From: a virus
Taxonomy: Duplodnaviria; Heunggongvirae; Uroviricota; Caudoviricetes
Direction: 5' to 3' (one strand)
IMG/VR virus record: IMGVR_UViG_641736163_000010
Length of the DNA: 39,990 bases
Within the stretch, counting starts at the first letter, position 1. Each line of letters opens with the position of its first letter. Made by a program: the position numbers and the translations under genes. Positions 12,085 to 27,233 of the stretch are shown here, in pieces. The notes beneath the pieces are model-generated. The model worked only from the letters and a program-made list of their open reading frames with translations, was not told where the DNA came from and ran no database searches.

Positions 12085-14654
12085 CCACCGCTCCCTGATA
12101 ACATACCGCCATCACGCAACTGCAGCCGGAGTTCATCCTGTGCCCCCTTGCGGGCCATCTCATACACCGCTTTCATCAGCTGCGGCCCTGCCCGCCCGTT
12201 GGGGCCGTCGTTCTGAATCACCACGTGATTGTTCTGATTAAAATTAATGCCTTCCGCCCGCCGCATCTGCGCCGGACTTCCGGCACCGCCGACATAACCA
12301 CCTTCCGCATAGCCCCGCATCAGGCGGTACAGATTGCCGACACCAATCCGGCTGGTCGCCTCCTTCGTGAAGACAAACTCCCCGCGATGAACAATCCCCG
12401 CAGGTTCATATTTACCCCCCGTCCCCGTAAATCCCCCGGTCGCGAAATGGAAGTTCGCCGCCGCAGCCTGAATGGCTGTACCGCCTGACGCGGATGCGCC
12501 GCCACCAACAGCCCCGCCAATGGCGCTGCCGATACTCCCGACTATCCCCACCATCGCCTGCTTCAGAAAAATCTCTGTCAGCATGGACAGCACAGAACGG
12601 GTGAAACCACGCCAGTTCTGTTCGCTGCCGGTCAGCATCGCTGCCATATTCTGTGCAATACCGTCAAAGGTCTGCGTGGCTGCACTTTTTACCTGCGACA
12701 TACTGTCCGTCGCACTTTCCGCCCACTCGCCCCAGCCGGACTTCATCCCGGCCATCCAGCTTCCACGAAGCTGCTCCTCCGCAGACCAGGTGTTCTTCAG
12801 TGCAGATGTGGCCTTCGCCAGCGCAACCGGATTATCACCGTACACCTCACGAAGGCGCTGCTCTTCCGACTCCCGCTGCGCCTGACGGTCGGTGAGTCCG
12901 CGGGCTTTTGCGCTGATTGCCGCCTGCTTCGCGCTCTGCTGCTGTTCAAACCGCGCCGCCTGCTGTGCCAGCTCATTCAGCCGCTTCTGGTGTTCAATCT
13001 TGTCTCCCAGCTCAGCCAGCTGGCGTTTGTACTCCAGCGTCTCTTTCTCATGAGCCAGCAGGGATTTTTCCTGCTCAGATAACTGCCGTTTCGTGGCGGC
13101 CTCTTTCAGGACCACATACTGATTTTCCGCTTCCCATAAATCCCGGCGCTGCTGGCTGATTTTCTCATTCACACCGCTGTGTTTTTCCAGCGTCCTGAGC
13201 TCGGTTTCAAGCGCCAGCATGGCTGCATGCGCCCGGTCTTCCTGGCGCTCACCGGCAGACACCTTCACACCTGACGGCTTTTTCAGCGTCGATTCATAAT
13301 CCTTTTTTGCCGACGCCATCAGCGTGTTGTAATCCGCCTGCAGGATTTTTCCGTCTTTCAGGGCCTTATTCAGCTCTTTCTGACGGGCGGTATATTTCTC
13401 CAGTGGCGTCTGCAGGCGCTCATACGCCTTCTGCGCCTCTCCGGTATACTTCAGCTGTGACGCCTCACGCTCAGCCCGGTCCCTTGCCGCCAGTTCACCG
13501 GCTTTTTCCATATCCGACTGCAGCGTGGCCGCTGCCAGACCCAGACGGGCATTTTCCCGGTCATCCCATGCCCCCTGAAGGTTCGCACGAAAAGAGGAGG
13601 TCTTTCCCCGGCGCTGGCTCCGGCTCTGGTACCACTGCCATTTTTTATCCGCCTCATCAAATGCCTTCTGCGCACTGGCGAGCATATCCGCTGAGGATTC
13701 AGGACGACCGATATCCAGAATGGCATCCCACATCGATTTGAATGCCTTCCCTGTTTTATCCGCCCAGGTCTCCAGTGTTCCCATGTTTTCTTTCAGGCGA
13801 CGGGTCTGCTCATCAAAGCCTTTCGTGGCGATATCGTTCGCCGCCTGCAATGCCCCGGCCTCGTCTCCGGAACGCTGCAGCTGTGCAACATACGCAATCT
13901 GCTCTGCCGTCACGTTACGGAACTGGCGCGCCATCGCCATCAGTCCCGACGTCGGGTCAGTGGTCAGCTTCCCGAAGGCTTCAGCGACTTTATCCACCTC
14001 CACACCGGATGCAGACGCAAAACGCGCGACACTCTGGTTGATGGCATCAAACTGTTCACCACCACGCACACCGGCATTCACCAGGGCTGCCAGTGACTCT
14101 CTCGCCTGGTTAAACGTCAGCCCTGCTGCCTGCCCGGCTCTTGAGAGAGTCAGCATACGATCGGCAGTCAGTCCGGACTGATTACCGGAAAGAACCAGGG
14201 TTTTATTAAACGCTGAAAGCGTGGAATCTCCCTGGTACCAGGCGTACACCAGCGCACCTGTCGCCACCGCCAGCGAGGTGACCCCGACCATCGGCAGGGT
14301 GATCGCACCGGCAAGCCCCCTGAACATGGGGATCATCCCGCCGAAGGAGTCCTTCACCTGACCGCCCTGTTGCAGCAGGATCAGCCAGGGATTCTGACCA
14401 CCTGCAAGCTGCGTGGCGATATCCGTAAACTGTGCGGGCAGGGTTCGCATGGCCGCTTTATACTGCCCGACGGAAATCCCGGCTTTTTGTGCAGCCAGCG
14501 CCTGGCGGCTCAGGCCCTGTTCAACAGCACTGGCGGTTTTTCTGGCGTCGGTATCCAGACCTGAAAAATGACGCCTTACCCGGCTCATCTGCTCATCGAA
14601 ACGGACAGCATCCAGACTAAGGTCAATAACAAGATCACCAACCGGCTGGGACAT
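12081..14654 (-). CDS. H: Tail tape measure protein H
   Basis: 857 aa; near-identical to lambda gpH over long stretches (e.g. ...GMIPMFRGLAGAITLPMVG..., C-terminal ...FHFATGGFTGTGGKYEPAGIVHRGEFVFTKEATSRIGVGNLYRLMRGYA...). Confidence 0.97.
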   Translation of the reverse strand: MSQPVGDLVIDLSLDAVRFDEQMSRVRRHFSGLDTDARKTASAVEQGLSRQALAAQKAGISVGQYKAAMRTLPAQFTDIATQLAGGQNPWLILLQQGGQVKDSFGGMIPMFRGLAGAITLPMVGVTSLAVATGALVYAWYQGDSTLSAFNKTLVLSGNQSGLTADRMLTLSRAGQAAGLTFNQARESLAALVNAGVRGGEQFDAINQSVARFASASGVEVDKVAEAFGKLTTDPTSGLMAMARQFRNVTAEQIAYVAQLQRSGDEAGALQAANDIATKGFDEQTRRLKENMGTLETWADKTGKAFKSMWDAILDIGRPESSADMLASAQKAFDEADKKWQWYQSRSQRRGKTSSFRANLQGAWDDRENARLGLAAATLQSDMEKAGELAARDRAEREASQLKYTGEAQKAYERLQTPLEKYTARQKELNKALKDGKILQADYNTLMASAKKDYESTLKKPSGVKVSAGERQEDRAHAAMLALETELRTLEKHSGVNEKISQQRRDLWEAENQYVVLKEAATKRQLSEQEKSLLAHEKETLEYKRQLAELGDKIEHQKRLNELAQQAARFEQQQSAKQAAISAKARGLTDRQAQRESEEQRLREVYGDNPVALAKATSALKNTWSAEEQLRGSWMAGMKSGWGEWAESATDSMSQVKSAATQTFDGIAQNMAAMLTGSEQNWRGFTRSVLSMLTEIFLKQAMVGIVGSIGSAIGGAVGGGASASGGTAIQAAAANFHFATGGFTGTGGKYEPAGIVHRGEFVFTKEATSRIGVGNLYRLMRGYAEGGYVGGAGSPAQMRRAEGINFNQNNHVVIQNDGPNGRAGPQLMKAVYEMARKGAQDELRLQLRDGGMLSGSGG

Positions 14655-15506
14655 ATCTCACACCTCCCGGAATCCCCGCTGAAGCCATCATTAATGCGGC
14701 ATCATCCACCATGACATCTGCCACATCCGCAGACGATAAAATATCGCGCCCTCCGTCCCCACCGAACCGGACGCCTCCGGCAAGTCCTGCCGCTTTCTGC
14801 ATCAGCATTTTGTCCTCATCCGGCCTCTCCACCTGCTCTTCCTCATGCCGGGGGACAAGCAGACTGAAATCAGAGGGATGCATATCCGGATCGCAAAAAA
14901 ACAGGCTGAGTACAGCGTACGTCAGCCCGGAAAAATGCATATCCAGCTGGGTATCCTGAAAATAATGCGTGCGGTAAAAACGGTGCCAGTCGGCATATTC
15001 GGTGGATGTCATCCCGGCAAGCATGGCGCGCCAGTCGGGTCTCCCCATCTCACGCGCCAGTCTGAGGGCAAAGTTCAGCTCGCCGTCGAAGACTTTCCCG
15101 CAGAAAAATCATCATCAGTCAGCGTGTTATTTTTCGCCACTTCAGTAATATCAGTATCCGGACGAACAGCTTCGATCATCCCGGACAGGCACAACACCAC
15201 GTCTTCCGCCCGGGCAATGGCATCGGCAGGCCAGGTGGTGAGCACTTCCTGCTCTATCTTCATCACGGCCTCATTCATTGACGGTGACTGCGTTTTCTGT
15301 GGATGGTTATGCCACAGGGACATCGCCACCAGAAACGCGCCGGTTCTGACGAGATCTTCCACGCTTACCTGCAGGTTGCCGCAGGATTCTGCCTGTTCTG
15401 CACGCCGTTTCAGGAGGGCAAGATGCTCGATACGCTGCAGCGCAGACAATTCGGAAAGCGTGACAGACACACCGTTATATTCAAATTGTTCTGTTTTCAG
15501 AAACAT
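14635..15506 (-). CDS. T: Tail assembly chaperone G-T fusion (made by programmed -1 ribosomal frameshift near 15093-15099)
   Basis: T ORF (14635-15048) is in the -1 frame relative to G and open upstream to the slip site; minus-strand heptamer G GGA AAG (plus-strand ctttccc) is the conserved lambda G/T slippery sequence. Confidence 0.85.
15075..15506 (-). CDS. G: Tail assembly chaperone G
   Basis: 143 aa; MFLKTEQFEYNGVSVTLSELSALQRIEHLALLKRRAEQAES... matches lambda gpG; ends ...FSAGKSSTAS with the GGGAAAG slip site in the last codons. Confidence 0.95.
   Translation of the reverse strand: MFLKTEQFEYNGVSVTLSELSALQRIEHLALLKRRAEQAESCGNLQVSVEDLVRTGAFLVAMSLWHNHPQKTQSPSMNEAVMKIEQEVLTTWPADAIARAEDVVLCLSGMIEAVRPDTDITEVAKNNTLTDDDFSAGKSSTAS
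15093..15099 (-). promoter_or_regulatory. Programmed -1 frameshift slippery heptamer GGGAAAG (G to G-T)
   Basis: Read directly; frame arithmetic of the G and T ORFs is consistent with a -1 shift here. Confidence 0.8.
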
Positions 15507-22559: not shown

Positions 22560-22762
22560 AACCTCACTCCCAGCGGACGACGGCGACGCCGGGTTGTCCC
22601 CAGTACCGACTCCGCATCATTGATCGCCCGGTTAAGCTCATCCAGAGAAGCCGCCGTATATTCAATTCTGCGACCATCTTTCTGGACAGACACCACCCGT
22701 TTACCGGTTAATAAATCAAGGCGCGCCTGACGCAGCGCCTGCAGTTCAGCGACTGTAACCAT
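22556..22762 (-). CDS. W: Head-tail joining protein W
   Basis: 68 aa, same length as lambda gpW; MVTVAELQALRQARLDLLTGKRVVSVQKDGRRIEYTAASLDELNRAINDAESVL... Confidence 0.93.
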   Translation of the reverse strand: MVTVAELQALRQARLDLLTGKRVVSVQKDGRRIEYTAASLDELNRAINDAESVLGTTRRRRRPLGVRL

Positions 22763-24593
22763 TCACTCCTCCGGACAGCTTCGCTGCCAGTTCTTTAAGG
22801 GTTGGCCGGGTCGTCTCTTCTTCCCGGGATTTTGCCAGTACAGCCAGATCAAGCTGCCAGCGTTGCACGGACACACGTAATGCCGCGTAGGCATACACCA
22901 GGCAGTCCAGCGCTTCGTTACGCCGCTTTTTGTTATCCCACAGCAGACGCATCTTTCCTTTTTCCCACTTCTCCACAAGCTCTTCCGCGACCAGTTGCTG
23001 CGCCTCTGTCTGCGAAAAAATCTCCGGATCATCAGGAAAACGGATGGCATACGACGTGGCTTCATCCGCAGGCGTGGGATCGGCTTTCATACGGGCATAG
23101 AGAATTTCTTTTGCGGTGTCCGTCCCCACTTCACACAGATACACGCCCCGCTGATTGCGGGTTTTTGGCATGGTGATCACCGGCTTGCCATAGACAGATG
23201 CGCCTTTTACCGGCAGCACCCGGAAAACACCGTGTTTTTTTGACCTCTGATAAACGATTTCGCCATCGATCCCCCCGATGTCCCAGCAGACACGGGAAAT
23301 AGTCATTTCGGTTCCGTCTGCATGGCGGTATTTTTTGTTGATCGCCGCATCCACACGTAACAGCGTCTCTTCCTCATCGGGACGCCCCATAATGATGATT
23401 TTATCCACCAGAAAGGCTTCCTCTCCCGGAGCCCATCCCCAGACATACATCTCAAAACGGTTTCGCTGCGAGTCAATGCCCGCCGTCAGATAAACCACCC
23501 GGGCAGGCACCGCCGCCGTGTAACGCACAACCTTATCCATCAGTACCTGGTGATCGAGTTTTTCGCCCACAGCCTCTTCCCAGGTCTCGCCCAGCGTGGT
23601 GTTCACAAAGGTTTTCAGGCCGTTGGGATCTTTCAGTGCATCCAGCCAGTCATAGACAATCTGTACCCAGGTGGTGAACGGACTGTACGCCGTCCAGATA
23701 TGGAAAGTGATGGAGCGCGGCGGCGGAATTTCATTACCCGCAGCGCTGAAAAACGTCAGACCGTCACGGGTCCACATGCCCGTGTTTTCACAGATCCACC
23801 GCCCGTTACTCTGGTCCAGTTCAGACTGATGGATCACGCAGCCATGATGCTCACAGAGGTAGAAAACGCTTTCGGGGCTGTCCTTCTCCCATTTAAGCCC
23901 AAAAGGCGTGGACTCATCGCCAAATTTCAGATACTGCGCCTCCCCACAGTGCGGGCAGGGCACATAAAAACGCATGAAATGCGCCGACTCGTTGGCCGCT
24001 TTTTCGATCTGGCAGGAGCCTTTTATTTTAGGCGTCGAGCCGCGAATGGATTTTGGCCATACCGAGCCCTCAATACGCTTATCCCCCAGCAGGGTTGGCG
24101 AGCCCTCTTTTTCGACATCCGGCTCGAACGAGGAAAGTTCGTCATAGCAGACCACGTCCACGGATTTTTCACGGTAGTTTTTTGCTGCCGCACCACCCAG
24201 GCACCAGAAGCCCACCCCCGATGAAAAGCGTTTCAGCGTGAGAGTATTGTCACGATGTTTACGACCCAGCCACGGGGAAAGATCTTTCAGGCATGGCACG
24301 TCCCGAATCGTCGCCTCCACGTGAGACTTCATAAAATCTTCAGCGGCAGAATCCGTGGGCTGAAAAAGCAGACTGTTTCGGGATTTATGCTCAATAAAAT
24401 ACCCGGCGACTCCCAGCAACATCTTTGTATAGCCAACACGGGCAGATTTAATCAGATTAACAGTGCGGATCTGATCATTCCCCATACTGTTCATGATGGC
24501 GATCTGGAACGGCAGCGTTTTCCATTCGCCGTCACCGTATGAGGATTCTTTCGGCAGATAATAATACTGGTCAGCCCATTCAACTGCCGCCAT
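22746..24593 (-). CDS. A: Terminase large subunit A (main ORF; lacks in-frame N-terminal ~28 codons, see findings)
   Basis: 615 aa starting MAAVEWADQYYYLPKESSYGDGEWKTLPFQ..., collinear with lambda gpA from residue ~30 onward; the lambda-like N-terminus MNISxxQ... is present upstream (start ~24673) in another frame. Confidence 0.9.
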   Translation of the reverse strand: MAAVEWADQYYYLPKESSYGDGEWKTLPFQIAIMNSMGNDQIRTVNLIKSARVGYTKMLLGVAGYFIEHKSRNSLLFQPTDSAAEDFMKSHVEATIRDVPCLKDLSPWLGRKHRDNTLTLKRFSSGVGFWCLGGAAAKNYREKSVDVVCYDELSSFEPDVEKEGSPTLLGDKRIEGSVWPKSIRGSTPKIKGSCQIEKAANESAHFMRFYVPCPHCGEAQYLKFGDESTPFGLKWEKDSPESVFYLCEHHGCVIHQSELDQSNGRWICENTGMWTRDGLTFFSAAGNEIPPPRSITFHIWTAYSPFTTWVQIVYDWLDALKDPNGLKTFVNTTLGETWEEAVGEKLDHQVLMDKVVRYTAAVPARVVYLTAGIDSQRNRFEMYVWGWAPGEEAFLVDKIIIMGRPDEEETLLRVDAAINKKYRHADGTEMTISRVCWDIGGIDGEIVYQRSKKHGVFRVLPVKGASVYGKPVITMPKTRNQRGVYLCEVGTDTAKEILYARMKADPTPADEATSYAIRFPDDPEIFSQTEAQQLVAEELVEKWEKGKMRLLWDNKKRRNEALDCLVYAYAALRVSVQRWQLDLAVLAKSREEETTRPTLKELAAKLSGGVNGYSR

Positions 24594-24644
24594 CGGTACA
24601 ACCTGACCAGAGGCTGCAGCGCAACCGAAACGGCGGCCACCATA

Positions 24645-25163
24645 TTATTCAGTTGTTGCTCTGATATATTCATCCAGCAAATCCGGTAATTTATCCCCTG
24701 CCCGCGCACACTGATTTGCGCCCTTTGCAATAAGGGTTTTCAGATGGTCAATATGACGTGGCGTTAAATCCGGGAACTGTCGCTGCATGGATAACGGAAT
24801 GGAATCAAGCGTACTGGACAATGCCATCGCCAGTTTGCTGAGGGCGAAAACGCAGAAGTCTGAATCGATGAGCTTACCTTCGGTTACCTGATTTTTAAGT
24901 TTTTGAGCTACAGCCTGTTCTTCTGTCAGTTCAGCTCTGGCCCGAAGCAGCCTTTCCTCCAGTTCTCCCCCGTCATCAGGTGTTCTCTGATTGTGTTGTC
25001 GCCGCTCGCGATCTATCTCCAGTACAGTTTTAACGTCATATAAAACTTCCCTCCCCCGACGTTCAACAGGAGGAACGCCCCATTTATCAAATGCTTGAAC
25101 AGAGATACCGATGGAGGAGGCCATATCACTTTTATTCAATAAAAAAGGCCATCTCCTCTCCAT
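24645..25163 (-). CDS. nu1: Terminase small subunit Nu1
   Basis: 172 aa; ...EVLYD... and C-terminal half (...EEQAVAQKLKNQ...DSDFCVFALSKLAMALSSTLDSIPLSMQRQFPDLTPRHIDHLKTLIAKG...) align with lambda gpNu1; sits immediately downstream of cos; exact start uncertain (weak SD). Confidence 0.82.
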   Translation of the reverse strand: MERRWPFLLNKSDMASSIGISVQAFDKWGVPPVERRGREVLYDVKTVLEIDRERRQHNQRTPDDGGELEERLLRARAELTEEQAVAQKLKNQVTEGKLIDSDFCVFALSKLAMALSSTLDSIPLSMQRQFPDLTPRHIDHLKTLIAKGANQCARAGDKLPDLLDEYIRATTE

Positions 25164-25354: not shown

Positions 25355-25392
25355 AGTGAAAACGCGCGAGGTCGCCGCCCCGTAACGATCTG
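25355..25392 (-). other. cos site (cosN; 12-nt cohesive end GGGCGGCGACCT at ~25369-25380)
   Basis: Minus strand reads CGTTACGGGGCGGCGACCTCGCGCGTTTTCACTATTTATGA, matching the lambda cohesive-end junction CGTTACG|GGGCGGCGACCT|CGCGGGTTTTCGCTATTTATGA almost base for base. Confidence 0.9.
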
Positions 25393-25603: not shown

Positions 25604-26671
25604 ATGAGTCAACATCAATATTATCCACAGCTGAAATGGAAGCCTGCTGAATATGAATCTCTGATGCTTTTAGATCAAACTACGCTCTCTGGTTTTACTC
25701 CGATCATTACCATTCCAGACATAGACTGGGATTATGAAAACGAATGCTACAAGAAGAGTTTGAGTTCTTACTTATCTGACTTCGGTATTAACCTTGCGGC
25801 ATCCTGGAAAGCCAATCGTCCTGTTTTGCTGGATGTTAAATATTTAGATAAACATGGTTCGAGCCGCCATCATCCTCTAGATATGTGTATCCAAGATGCT
25901 AGAGTAAATGGTAAGGAAATTATCCCTGTTGTTTCTCCCGCATATTCAACAAACTATATACATGCTGTTCAACGCAACTTAATCAATGGGCTCGCTATAT
26001 CTATCACCCCCCAGACATGGCACCAATTCACAAGTCTGGTTAACCACTTAAATATTCATCCTAGTTTAATTGATGTAATCATTGATTTTGGAGATATTCA
26101 AAACGCAACTGATAGTTTAAAACAACAAGCATTAAGCATGGTCAACACATTATCAGGCCAAGCTCCGTGGAGAAACTTGATTTTATCTTCAACCGCATAC
26201 CCGGCATCACAGGCAGGGATACCGCAACATCAAGTTCATCATATTCCGCGCCATGAATACGATCTTTGGATGTACGTAGTACAGAATTTTAGCAATGGAA
26301 GAACGCCAAGTTTTAGTGATTATCCCACCGCTAGCTCTACCATTACGAGCGTAGACCCACGCTTCATGTCTCAGTATGTCTCAGTGAGATATTCGAACGA
26401 TACCTCATGGATCTTTGTAAAAGGTACCGCAGTTAAAGGAAATGGATGGGGCCAAACTAAAAACTTATGTACTACCCTTGTTAGTTCGCCAGAGTATCAA
26501 GTCTTTGGCTCCAAATTTAGTTGGGGGGATGATTACATTTACCAAAGATCATTAGGCGCTAACAAATCTGGCGGCTCTAAAGAATGGCGTAAAGTTGCAC
26601 ATACGCACCATATTACGTTAGTCGTGAGACAGCTTTATTGGTTGGCGCAGACTCAGCCTGCCAAGCCTTAA
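25604..26671 (+). CDS. Hypothetical 355-aa protein of AT-rich moron cassette (possibly Beta-protein/sce7725-like; unverified)
   Basis: Long ORF with strong AAGGAG SD; AT-rich codon usage unlike flanking phage genes; opposite strand to the late operon; N-terminal YYPQLKWKPAEYESL; no catalytic motif I can name. Confidence 0.8.
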   Translation: MSQHQYYPQLKWKPAEYESLMLLDQTTLSGFTPIITIPDIDWDYENECYKKSLSSYLSDFGINLAASWKANRPVLLDVKYLDKHGSSRHHPLDMCIQDARVNGKEIIPVVSPAYSTNYIHAVQRNLINGLAISITPQTWHQFTSLVNHLNIHPSLIDVIIDFGDIQNATDSLKQQALSMVNTLSGQAPWRNLILSSTAYPASQAGIPQHQVHHIPRHEYDLWMYVVQNFSNGRTPSFSDYPTASSTITSVDPRFMSQYVSVRYSNDTSWIFVKGTAVKGNGWGQTKNLCTTLVSSPEYQVFGSKFSWGDDYIYQRSLGANKSGGSKEWRKVAHTHHITLVVRQLYWLAQTQPAKP

Positions 26672-27233
26672 CTTTCCAGCCTACGCGTTTCTTTAAGGCT
26701 GTTCTGACTTCAGGCCTGAGATTCGCTATTGGAATATTTTCCGCAATAATATTCCATAACTCAAATCGGGGCTTGCTTTTGATTCCTTTGGAATAGCCCC
26801 ATCGTTCAAGTACGTCGATACATTCATCTTTCCAAAGCAATTGAGCGAGCATCAATGTGTCATGGTTTCGATTAAGCTTTTCTCCACGCATGTGCTTTAT
26901 AAGAATGGCGCCTTTTGGCCCAACAGAAACCGTTTTAACGCCCCACCAACCTGGGATTAACTTTAATGCTCCCTCAAGGTGTTTCTCAGCTACGACAAGA
27001 GTAACCTTGTCCATTACAGAAGAATAATGCTTGATTTGAAGAGGCAAACGCTCCAAAGAGTCATATTCACTTTTGAGCTCGTACCCGTGTATAACACCAT
27101 TTATTACAGCAATGTCTGCTCTACTGGCGCCAAGGGATATGGAAAATTCATCGACCACAAGGCAGTCTGGATCTAAATGCGATTCTTTCAAAAGCTTATG
27201 ATGCACCGCGAACCTAACATCTTGATCTTTCAT
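26613..27233 (-). CDS. Hypothetical 206-aa protein with PD-(D/E)xK-like nuclease motif (possibly sce7726-like; unverified)
   Basis: AAGGAG SD 5 nt upstream of ATG; consensus TATAAT ~30 nt upstream; sequence ...VVDEFSISLGASRADIAVINGVIHGYELKSEYD... fits D-x(n)-E-x-K spacing of restriction-endonuclease-fold nucleases; 3' end overlaps the 355-aa gene by 59 nt (convergent). Confidence 0.8.
   Translation of the reverse strand: MKDQDVRFAVHHKLLKESHLDPDCLVVDEFSISLGASRADIAVINGVIHGYELKSEYDSLERLPLQIKHYSSVMDKVTLVVAEKHLEGALKLIPGWWGVKTVSVGPKGAILIKHMRGEKLNRNHDTLMLAQLLWKDECIDVLERWGYSKGIKSKPRFELWNIIAENIPIANLRPEVRTALKKRVGWKVKAWQAESAPTNKAVSRLT

What the first reader, a model, noticed from the sequence alone, without database searches (positions are those of the whole stretch)
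22746..24730. Large terminase subunit N-terminus is encoded out of frame with the rest of the gene
The main TerL ORF (22746-24593) begins MAAVEWAD..., which corresponds to about residue 30 of lambda gpA. The expected N-terminus (MNISEQQLNNMVAAVSVALQPLVRLYR, compare lambda MNISNSQVNRLRHFVRAGLRSLFR) is present, starting at ~24673 and overlapping the end of Nu1 exactly as in lambda, but it is in a different reading frame (ORF 24491-24730) and runs past the junction. A 1-nt difference just upstream of the AVEWAD codons separates the two frames. In the main frame an in-frame stop (the Nu1 stop) lies 16 codons upstream of ATG 24593 with no alternative start. The N-terminal segment of gpA is the Nu1-interaction region, so either the prophage is packaging-defective (pseudogenised TerL), or the sequence has a 1-nt error, or TerL is made as a truncated protein or by recoding.
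Basis: seen in the sequence. Interest (0 to 1): 0.6.

Follow-up and report, generated by a model that had tools for sequence, protein, structure and literature searches.

The report
One-base frameshift in prophage terminase gene
The large-terminase gene of this lambda-like prophage is split by one missing G found only in this draft scaffold, most likely a sequencing or assembly error or else a very recent private mutation, so it is ordinary.

Summary
The native TerL start (ATG 24673, overlapping the end of nu1) and its first 24 codons are out of frame with the 615-aa body (22746-24593). The cause is one missing G: the window has GG at 24603-24602, every relative has GGG.

An extra T (T6 at 25141-25146, T5 elsewhere) makes the native Nu1 start read MAFFIE-stop. 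A synonymous change lies at 25095.

All three differences fall within 543 bp. None occurs at any matching place in complete E. coli genomes. No other contig checked carries the G or 25095 change. Otherwise the window is identical to other assemblies over 14-21 kb.

The window is the last 39,990 nt of draft Escherichia albertii scaffold CH991859.1. A second scaffold in that assembly, CH991860.1 (15.5 kb), repeats window 25279-9729 and carries the intact allele at all three sites.

Adding one G gives a 642-aa TerL, and removing one T a 168-aa Nu1, both identical to those copies.

There is no slippery heptamer, no unusual downstream RNA structure and no conservation of the split, so recoding is rejected.

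The likeliest cause is consensus error (about 0.6). The alternative is genuine private knock-outs in one of two prophage copies (about 0.37). Either way it is ordinary.

The parts
22746..24593 (-). Body of the large terminase gene (frame B, 615-aa ORF starting MAAVEWAD). It corresponds to residues 28-642 of the intact protein.
   Evidence: ORF list. Pfam GpA_ATPase and GpA_nuclease. Identical to the TerL of CH991860.1 and GCA_002965745.1 once one G is restored.
24602..24673 (-). Native TerL start (ATG 24673-24671) and first 24 codons, MNISEQQLNNMVAAVSVALQPLVR, in frame A. It overlaps the 3' end of nu1.
   Evidence: Sequence. The same start is annotated in relatives with a 29-nt overlap with nu1. 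Collinear with the lambda gpA N-terminus.
24602..24603 (-). Site of the 1-nt deletion: GG here, GGG in every relative.
   Evidence: Alignments. G-run length is 3 in all 13 other contigs that cover it. None of 421 places in 251 complete E. coli genomes matches the window allele. No exact match in the GTDB representative genomes or the JGI metagenomes.
24491..24601 (-). Out-of-frame continuation of frame A: 36 missense codons, then TGA at 24493-24491.
   Evidence: Translation.
24645..25152 (-). Small terminase gene nu1. The native start ATG 25152 follows GGAGAGGAG. In the window it reads MAFFIE-stop, with TAA at 25134-25132. The Nu1 body continues in another frame that happens to be opened by an upstream ATG at 25163, which has no Shine-Dalgarno sequence.
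   Evidence: Sequence. Pfam Phage_Nu1. Comparison with the intact 168-aa Nu1.
25141..25146 (-). T run with a 1-nt insertion: T6 here, T5 in relatives.
   Evidence: None of 228 places in complete E. coli genomes has T6. No exact match in the GTDB representative genomes. An exact look-up of the 159-aa Nu1 product, which the source annotation calls at the internal ATG 25124, returns only three contigs; only the source contig has T6.
25095..25095 (-). Private synonymous substitution in nu1: CAA here, CAG elsewhere.
   Evidence: None of 235 places in complete E. coli genomes has it.
25369..25380 (-). cosN cohesive-end sequence GGGCGGCGACCT, 217 nt upstream of the native Nu1 start (229 nt from the left end to the ATG at 25152).
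   Evidence: Identical to bases 1-12 of lambda NC_001416.

Best explanation
The split TerL gene is not an evolved arrangement. One G is missing from a GGG run, and the change is private to the main scaffold (CH991859.1) of a draft Escherichia albertii assembly. It travels with two more private singletons within 543 bp: an extra T that frameshifts nu1 at its third to fourth codon, and a synonymous G-to-A change.

I judge these most likely to be consensus errors in a poorly supported stretch of the draft. The stretch begins where a 15.5-kb second scaffold of the same assembly starts to duplicate the window, and it lies in the last 40 kb of the main scaffold. On this reading the real phage has the ordinary lambda layout. 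Nu1 is 168 aa. TerL is 642 aa and starts 29 nt before the end of nu1. The N-terminal segment that contacts Nu1 is joined in frame to the ATPase and nuclease domains.

Shown: the position of the indels, their privacy, their clustering, and the intact duplicate in the same assembly. Inferred: that the cause is read or consensus error rather than mutation.
For: 1. Source. The window is 100% identical to GCA_000155105.1 scaffold CH991859.1. The offset is record = window + 4,631,093, so the window ends exactly at the scaffold end, 4,671,083. NZ_CH991859.1 is cited as a draft E. albertii genome (PMC5622975).

2. Intact duplicate. Scaffold CH991860.1 of the same assembly (15,551 nt) is collinear with window 25279-9729. 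It differs at four positions only. Three are the sites in question, 134, 184 and 676 nt from its left end. The fourth is 21 nt from its right end, and there the window has the common allele. Under uniform placement, all four falling within 676 nt of an end has p of about 6e-5.

3. Near-identity elsewhere. Three other assemblies are identical to the window over 9.6-21.6 kb except at these three sites, plus one substitution at 31611. Clustering of the three sites has p = 0.003-0.009.

4. Privacy. None of the three alleles occurs at any matching place in 5,426 complete E. coli genomes: 0 of 421, 228 and 235 places. The G and T alleles have no exact match in the GTDB representative genomes, and the G allele has none in the JGI metagenomes. 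The 615-aa product is not on record in the gene catalogue.

5. Error type. Two of the three differences are homopolymer length changes. A 5x-coverage metagenome contig shows another length (T4) at the same T run and a TerL split elsewhere. Such indels therefore do arise as assembly noise here.

6. Repair. Single-base repairs give proteins identical to those of the intact copies.

7. Rest of the module. The remaining morphogenesis genes are intact and identical to relatives.
Against: No reads or quality values could be examined, so error is inferred and not shown.

The runs are short (G3, T5), so they are not classic error hot spots.

A 15.5-kb extra scaffold is large for a mere redundant contig. 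It may be a true second copy of the Nu1-to-I module in another prophage. In that case the main-scaffold alleles could be the real sequence of copy 1, resolved only near the repeat boundary, where reads are anchored in unique flank.

The source annotation lists no TerL gene and a shortened 159-aa Nu1 here. The annotators therefore took the sequence as it stands.
Confidence: 0.6

Rival explanations
1. Genuine, very recent inactivation. The strain carries a prophage whose nu1 and A genes are both truly frameshifted, so they are pseudogenes and this copy makes no terminase and does no cos cutting or packaging. It probably sits alongside a second prophage with an intact Nu1-to-I module (CH991860.1) that could supply terminase in trans.
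For: The frameshifts are in the deposited consensus. The same assembly keeps two versions apart, as expected if reads anchored in the flank consistently differ. Homopolymer slippage is also a real mutational mode. Relatives show that terminase regions of such prophages do decay: L037 and L040 have deletions fusing or truncating TerL, and L036 has IS1 upstream of nu1.
Against: Three private changes fall in 543 bp, with none in the other 14 kb of the duplicated module and one in 21.6 kb against another strain. This does not fit uniform neutral decay (p = 0.003-0.009). Two of four differences being indels is an unusual ratio for real mutations. A second knock-out in the same operon brings no further selective gain. 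No other sign of decay appears in the late region.
Confidence: 0.37
2. The split is functional. Either TerL is completed by -1 ribosomal frameshifting or transcriptional slippage. Or an N-terminally truncated TerL from ATG 24593 is the working enzyme. Or the short G and T runs act as a phase-variable switch on packaging.
For: Frame A and frame B overlap by about 150 nt, so a -1 shift anywhere between codon 24 and AVEWAD would restore the protein. An AGG lies 8 nt upstream of ATG 24593. One other contig has a different T-run length, T4.
Against: There is no X XXY YYZ heptamer and no homopolymer of 4 or more in 24673-24560. The downstream RNA is not unusually structured, z = +0.52. All relatives, including copies that are 99.98% identical, have one frame, so the arrangement is not conserved. 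The window's real programmed frameshift, G/GT, does have its GGGAAAG site at 15093-15099, which shows what a true case looks like. Ribosomes starting at the native ATG read through ATG 24593 in another frame. The missing 27 residues lie in the segment that binds the small subunit: for lambda this is my own knowledge from Frackman et al. 1985, and for P22 the site is the first 23 TerL residues (PMC9611059). Runs of 2-3 G and 5-6 T are far shorter than known contingency tracts.
Confidence: 0.03

Closest known systems
Bacteriophage lambda terminase operon (nu1 and A, NC_001416 positions 191-2636) next to cos
   Same: Same order: cosN, nu1, A, W, B. The 12-nt cohesive end is identical. The A start overlaps the nu1 end (26 nt in lambda, 29 nt in this phage type). 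The repaired TerL is 642 aa against 641 aa and 64.8% identical, collinear from residue 1. Nu1 is 34.8% identical.
   Different: In the window as deposited, one G is missing after codon 24 of A and one T is added after codon 2 of nu1. Neither gene is a single ORF from its native start.
Intact TerL and Nu1 of the same prophage type in E. coli and E. albertii assemblies, for example WP_021535866.1 (642 aa) with WP_001405844.1 (168 aa), and the CH991860.1, GCA_002965745.1 and GCA_026784585.1 copies
   Same: DNA is 99.5% (E. coli AR_0017) to 99.98% identical. The proteins are identical to the CH991860.1, GCA_002965745.1 and GCA_026784585.1 copies after single-base repair.
   Different: Only the three private sites: 24603, 25095 and the T run at 25141-25146.
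Lambda G/GT programmed -1 frameshift (tail assembly chaperones)
   Same: Two overlapping frames encode one protein. This system is present in the same window: G at 15075-15506, T at 14635-15048, and GGGAAAG at 15093-15099.
   Different: The TerL junction has no slippery heptamer, and the two-frame layout is not conserved in any relative. It does not work like G/GT.
Frameshifted genes in draft assemblies, and pseudogenes in decaying lambdoid prophages
   Same: A single-base homopolymer indel disrupts an otherwise intact essential phage gene. It is private to one assembly.
   Different: Nothing distinguishes this case from them. What remains unknown is which of the two it is.

Membership tests
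Lambda gpA-type large terminase (TerL) | N-terminal gpA ATPase domain plus C-terminal gpA endonuclease domain | tested here: met
   PF05876 at E = 1.7e-54 and PF20454 at E = 5.9e-71 on the 615-aa ORF.
Lambda gpA-type large terminase (TerL) | One continuous ORF from a start overlapping the end of nu1, including the roughly 27-residue N-terminal segment | tested here: not met
   Not met in the window as deposited: frame break at 24602-24603. Met after adding one G, which gives a 642-aa protein identical to the intact copies.
Lambda Nu1-type small terminase | Phage_Nu1 domain read from the start codon that follows the Shine-Dalgarno sequence | tested here: not met
   The domain is present (PF07471). 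The native ATG 25152 reads MAFFIE-stop because of T6. Removing one T gives the 168-aa Nu1 of relatives.
Programmed -1 ribosomal frameshift | Slippery heptamer X XXY YYZ in the overlap | tested here: not met
   None in 24673-24491. No homopolymer of 4 or more in 24673-24560.
Programmed -1 ribosomal frameshift | Downstream stimulatory RNA structure | tested here: not met
   Window 24610-24510 folds at -25.2 kcal/mol, z = +0.52 against shuffles.
Programmed -1 ribosomal frameshift | The two-frame arrangement is conserved in relatives | tested here: not met
   All relatives have a single frame. None of 421 E. coli places has the allele.
Phase-variable (contingency) homopolymer switch | Long tract, usually 7 or more bases, with length varying among isolates | tested here: not met
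   The tracts are G2/G3 and T5/T6. They are invariant in complete E. coli genomes. The only other length, T4, is in a 5x-coverage metagenome contig.
Sequencing or assembly artefact | Variant private to one assembly and contradicted by another representation of the same sequence in that assembly | tested here: met
   for privacy. for CH991860.1 carrying the intact alleles.
Sequencing or assembly artefact | Differences clustered locally and dominated by homopolymer indels | tested here: met
   Three sites in 543 bp, two of them homopolymer indels. p = 0.003-0.009, and about 6e-5 for proximity to the ends of the small scaffold.
Sequencing or assembly artefact | Low read support or quality at the sites | not testable with these tools
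   No reads, traces or quality values are available.
Pseudogene in a decaying prophage | Other marks of decay (substitutions, truncations, IS elements) spread over the prophage | tested here: not met
   Window 10967-32559 differs from GCA_026784585.1 only at the three sites plus one substitution. All head and tail ORFs are full length.

The most novel reading that the evidence does not exclude
Both frameshifts are real and represent a very recent, targeted shut-down of packaging. On this reading, simultaneous homopolymer slips at the extreme 5' ends of nu1 and A hit a prophage that is otherwise base-for-base identical to intact relatives. The change might be reversible and act as an on/off switch on virion production.
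Probability: 0.03. Interest if true: 0.45.

Novelty: already known. Interest (0 to 1): 0.07.

Why it matters
It matters little biologically. The terminase here is a standard lambda-type enzyme. The split gene is a single-base indel private to one draft scaffold.

The practical value is as a caution. Frameshifted prophage genes at scaffold ends or repeat boundaries of older draft assemblies should be checked against other copies before being read as pseudogenes or recoding.

If the changes were real, the prophage copy in the main scaffold would make neither terminase subunit. It could be packaged only with help from the intact copy.

Tried and rejected
1. Exact-product look-up of the 615-aa ORF: nothing on record. 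It could not be used to find other carriers.

2. Exact DNA scans for the G2 allele (GTDB representative genomes and JGI metagenomes) and the T6 allele (GTDB representative genomes only): no hits. These support privacy, but GTDB holds one genome per species.

3. Look-ups with the tail protein L and the DNA methylase: these returned mostly more distant prophages. They were useful only for context and for examples of real decay.

4. A literature search for the assembly accession found nothing. The scaffold accession identified the species.

5. Papers in the held library did not state the lambda gpA residues that bind Nu1. That point rests on my own knowledge, plus the P22 analogy in PMC9611059.

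6. Recoding: rejected on motif, structure and conservation.

7. Linear phage DNA. I considered that the small scaffold might represent packaged DNA ending at cos. I rejected this because it starts 101 nt inside cosN and ends at gene I, not at the right cohesive end.

8. I did not use the large protein-homology, structure-prediction or fold-search tools. The family assignment was never in doubt.

Full report
**What is in the sequence**

On the minus strand, nu1 ends with TAA at 24647-24645. The lambda-like TerL start ATG lies at 24673-24671, inside the end of nu1. It opens MNISEQQLNNMVAAVSVALQPLVR and then runs on as unrelated residues to TGA at 24493-24491.

The long ORF 22746-24593 (615 aa, MAAVEWADQYYYLPKES...) is in the Nu1 frame. 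Seventeen sense codons with no possible start separate it from the Nu1 stop.

Pfam finds the gpA ATPase and gpA nuclease domains in the 615-aa ORF. The frame offset of -1 implies one missing base.

**Where the indel is**

Close relatives annotate a 168-aa Nu1 and a 642-aa TerL that starts 29 nt before the Nu1 stop. These relatives are E. coli prophages at 99.5% identity and phage PhiR12_1 at 85%.

The alignment shows a single gap. The window has CAGGTT (GG at 24603-24602) where the relatives have CAGGGTT. Their proteins read ...LVRVVPM(T/A)AVEWAD.

Adding one G to the window gives a 642-aa protein. It is identical to TerL in two other records. It is 64.8% identical to lambda gpA and collinear with it from residue 1.

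I compared the window with a 99.97%-identical contig, GCA_002965745.1. It shows three differences in 9.6 kb, all within 543 bp:
- the missing G at 24603;
- a synonymous A-for-G change at 25095;
- an extra T in a T run, T6 at 25141-25146 against T5.

The extra T falls right after the native Nu1 start, ATG 25152, which is preceded by GGAGAGGAG. That start now reads MAFFIE-stop.

The 172-aa ORF in the window exists only because an upstream ATG at 25163, which has no Shine-Dalgarno sequence, happens to be in the shifted frame. Removing one T restores the 168-aa Nu1 of the relatives.

**How private the three alleles are**

- None occurs at any matching place in 5,426 complete E. coli genomes: 0 of 421 places for the G allele, 0 of 228 for the T allele, 0 of 235 for 25095.
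- The G2 and T6 alleles have no exact match in the GTDB representative genomes. The G2 allele has none in the JGI metagenome contigs.
- The 615-aa product is not in the gene catalogue.
- The 159-aa Nu1 product, which the source annotation calls at the internal ATG 25124, turns up in three contigs only. Only the source contig has T6.
- All 13 other contigs covering the TerL junction have GGG.

**Where the window comes from**

The window is 100% identical to scaffold CH991859.1 of assembly GCA_000155105.1. By the coordinate offset it is the last 39,990 nt of that 4,671,083-nt scaffold. NZ_CH991859.1 is cited as a draft Escherichia albertii genome (PMC5622975). The source annotation lists no TerL gene here.

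**The key result**

The same assembly holds a second scaffold, CH991860.1 (15,551 nt). It encodes an intact 168-aa Nu1 and an intact 642-aa TerL.

It is collinear with window 25279-9729 over its whole length and differs at four positions only. Three are the sites above, where it carries the common alleles; they lie 134, 184 and 676 nt from its left end. The fourth is 21 nt from its right end, and there the window carries the common allele.

Other assemblies are identical to the window over 17-21.6 kb apart from the same three sites and one substitution at 31611.

Under uniform placement:
- the clustering of the three sites has p = 0.003-0.009;
- all four inter-scaffold differences lying within 676 nt of a scaffold end has p of about 6e-5.

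**Interpretation**

The split is not an evolved arrangement. Three results reject recoding:
- there is no slippery heptamer and no homopolymer of 4 or more at the junction;
- the downstream RNA folds no better than shuffles, z = +0.52;
- every relative has one frame.

The true programmed frameshift of lambdoid phages, G/GT, is present in the window with its GGGAAAG at 15093-15099. That shows the contrast.

As written, ribosomes starting at the native TerL ATG make a 60-aa peptide and cross ATG 24593 out of frame. A product from ATG 24593 would lack the 27 N-terminal residues. These lie in the segment that contacts the small subunit. For lambda this rests on my own knowledge of Frackman et al. 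1985. For P22 the site is the first 23 TerL residues (PMC9611059).

Two explanations remain.

1. I favour consensus error, at about 0.6. The variants are private and tightly clustered, and mostly homopolymer length changes. They sit within one read-length of the point where the duplicate scaffold begins. They lie in the terminal 40 kb of a draft scaffold. The same assembly contradicts them. The small scaffold itself has a private mismatch 21 nt from its end, which suggests untrimmed low-quality ends in this assembly.

2. The alternative, at about 0.37, is that the strain has two copies of the Nu1-to-I module and the main-scaffold copy truly carries both knock-outs. Uniform neutral decay does not fit the clustering or the absence of other changes. 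I could not inspect reads, however, so this is not excluded.

**Comparison with what is known, and novelty**

The genes are ordinary members of the lambda nu1/A terminase family next to a lambda-identical cosN. A single-base frameshift in such a gene is a familiar thing, whether it is an artefact or a fresh pseudogene. Interest is low.

Noticed in passing
window 25141-25152 (minus strand): nu1 is also frameshifted. An extra T (T6 against T5) right after its native start makes it read MAFFIE-stop. The 172-aa ORF in the window starts at a fortuitous upstream ATG (25163) with no ribosome-binding site.
   Followed up: yes
window 39990 (the end of scaffold CH991859.1); scaffold CH991860.1 = L013 and L032: The window is the terminal 39,990 nt of a 4.67-Mb draft scaffold, so the prophage runs off the scaffold end. 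A separate 15.5-kb scaffold of the same assembly duplicates window 25279-9729. Whether this is a second prophage copy or a redundant contig is unresolved.
   Followed up: partly
window 25604-26671 (+) and 26613-27233 (-): A convergent gene pair lies between the lysis cassette and cos, with 3' ends overlapping by 59 nt. One is a Beta_protein (PF14350) that hits the PADLOC models PD-Lambda-2_C and beta. The other is a P4 cII-like protein that hits the PADLOC model cll. No gop-like gene was looked for. This looks like a defence-type moron, and it is conserved in many related prophages.
   Followed up: partly
window 15093-15099 (-), in G (15075-15506) and T (14635-15048): The canonical lambda G/GT -1 slippery heptamer GGGAAAG lies near the end of the tail-chaperone gene G. 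It is a genuine, known programmed frameshift in the same window.
   Followed up: partly
window 32779-32855 and 32865-32940 (-): Two phage-borne tRNA genes, tRNA-Arg (tcg) and tRNA-Met (cat), lie between the N6/N4 methylase gene (32990-34039) and the PmrD-like and SASA-esterase genes.
   Followed up: no
L001 3027-5801 (E. coli 300709, NZ_CP025903.1 1548418-1552641): RefSeq annotates a 4,224-nt 'terminase gpA endonuclease subunit' CDS here, about 1,407 aa and far longer than the 642-aa TerL. This suggests TerL is fused to downstream sequence in that record.
   Followed up: no
L009 (ENA ERZ504677 NODE_567, coverage about 5x): This metagenome contig has T4 at the same nu1 T run, and its TerL is split into 514-aa and 141-aa pieces at another site. 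Indels in this operon recur in low-coverage assemblies.
   Followed up: partly
L036, L037, L040 (related prophages in other genomes): These are examples of real decay of the same terminase region. L036 has IS1 inserted just upstream of nu1. L037 keeps only an 80-aa ORF after nu1, followed directly by Z. L040 has a 531-aa TerL followed directly by Z.
   Followed up: no
window 9749 (compare L032 position 14906): CH991860.1 has a private G, where the window and other strains have C, 21 nt from its right end. This looks like an untrimmed contig-end error in the same assembly.
   Followed up: partly
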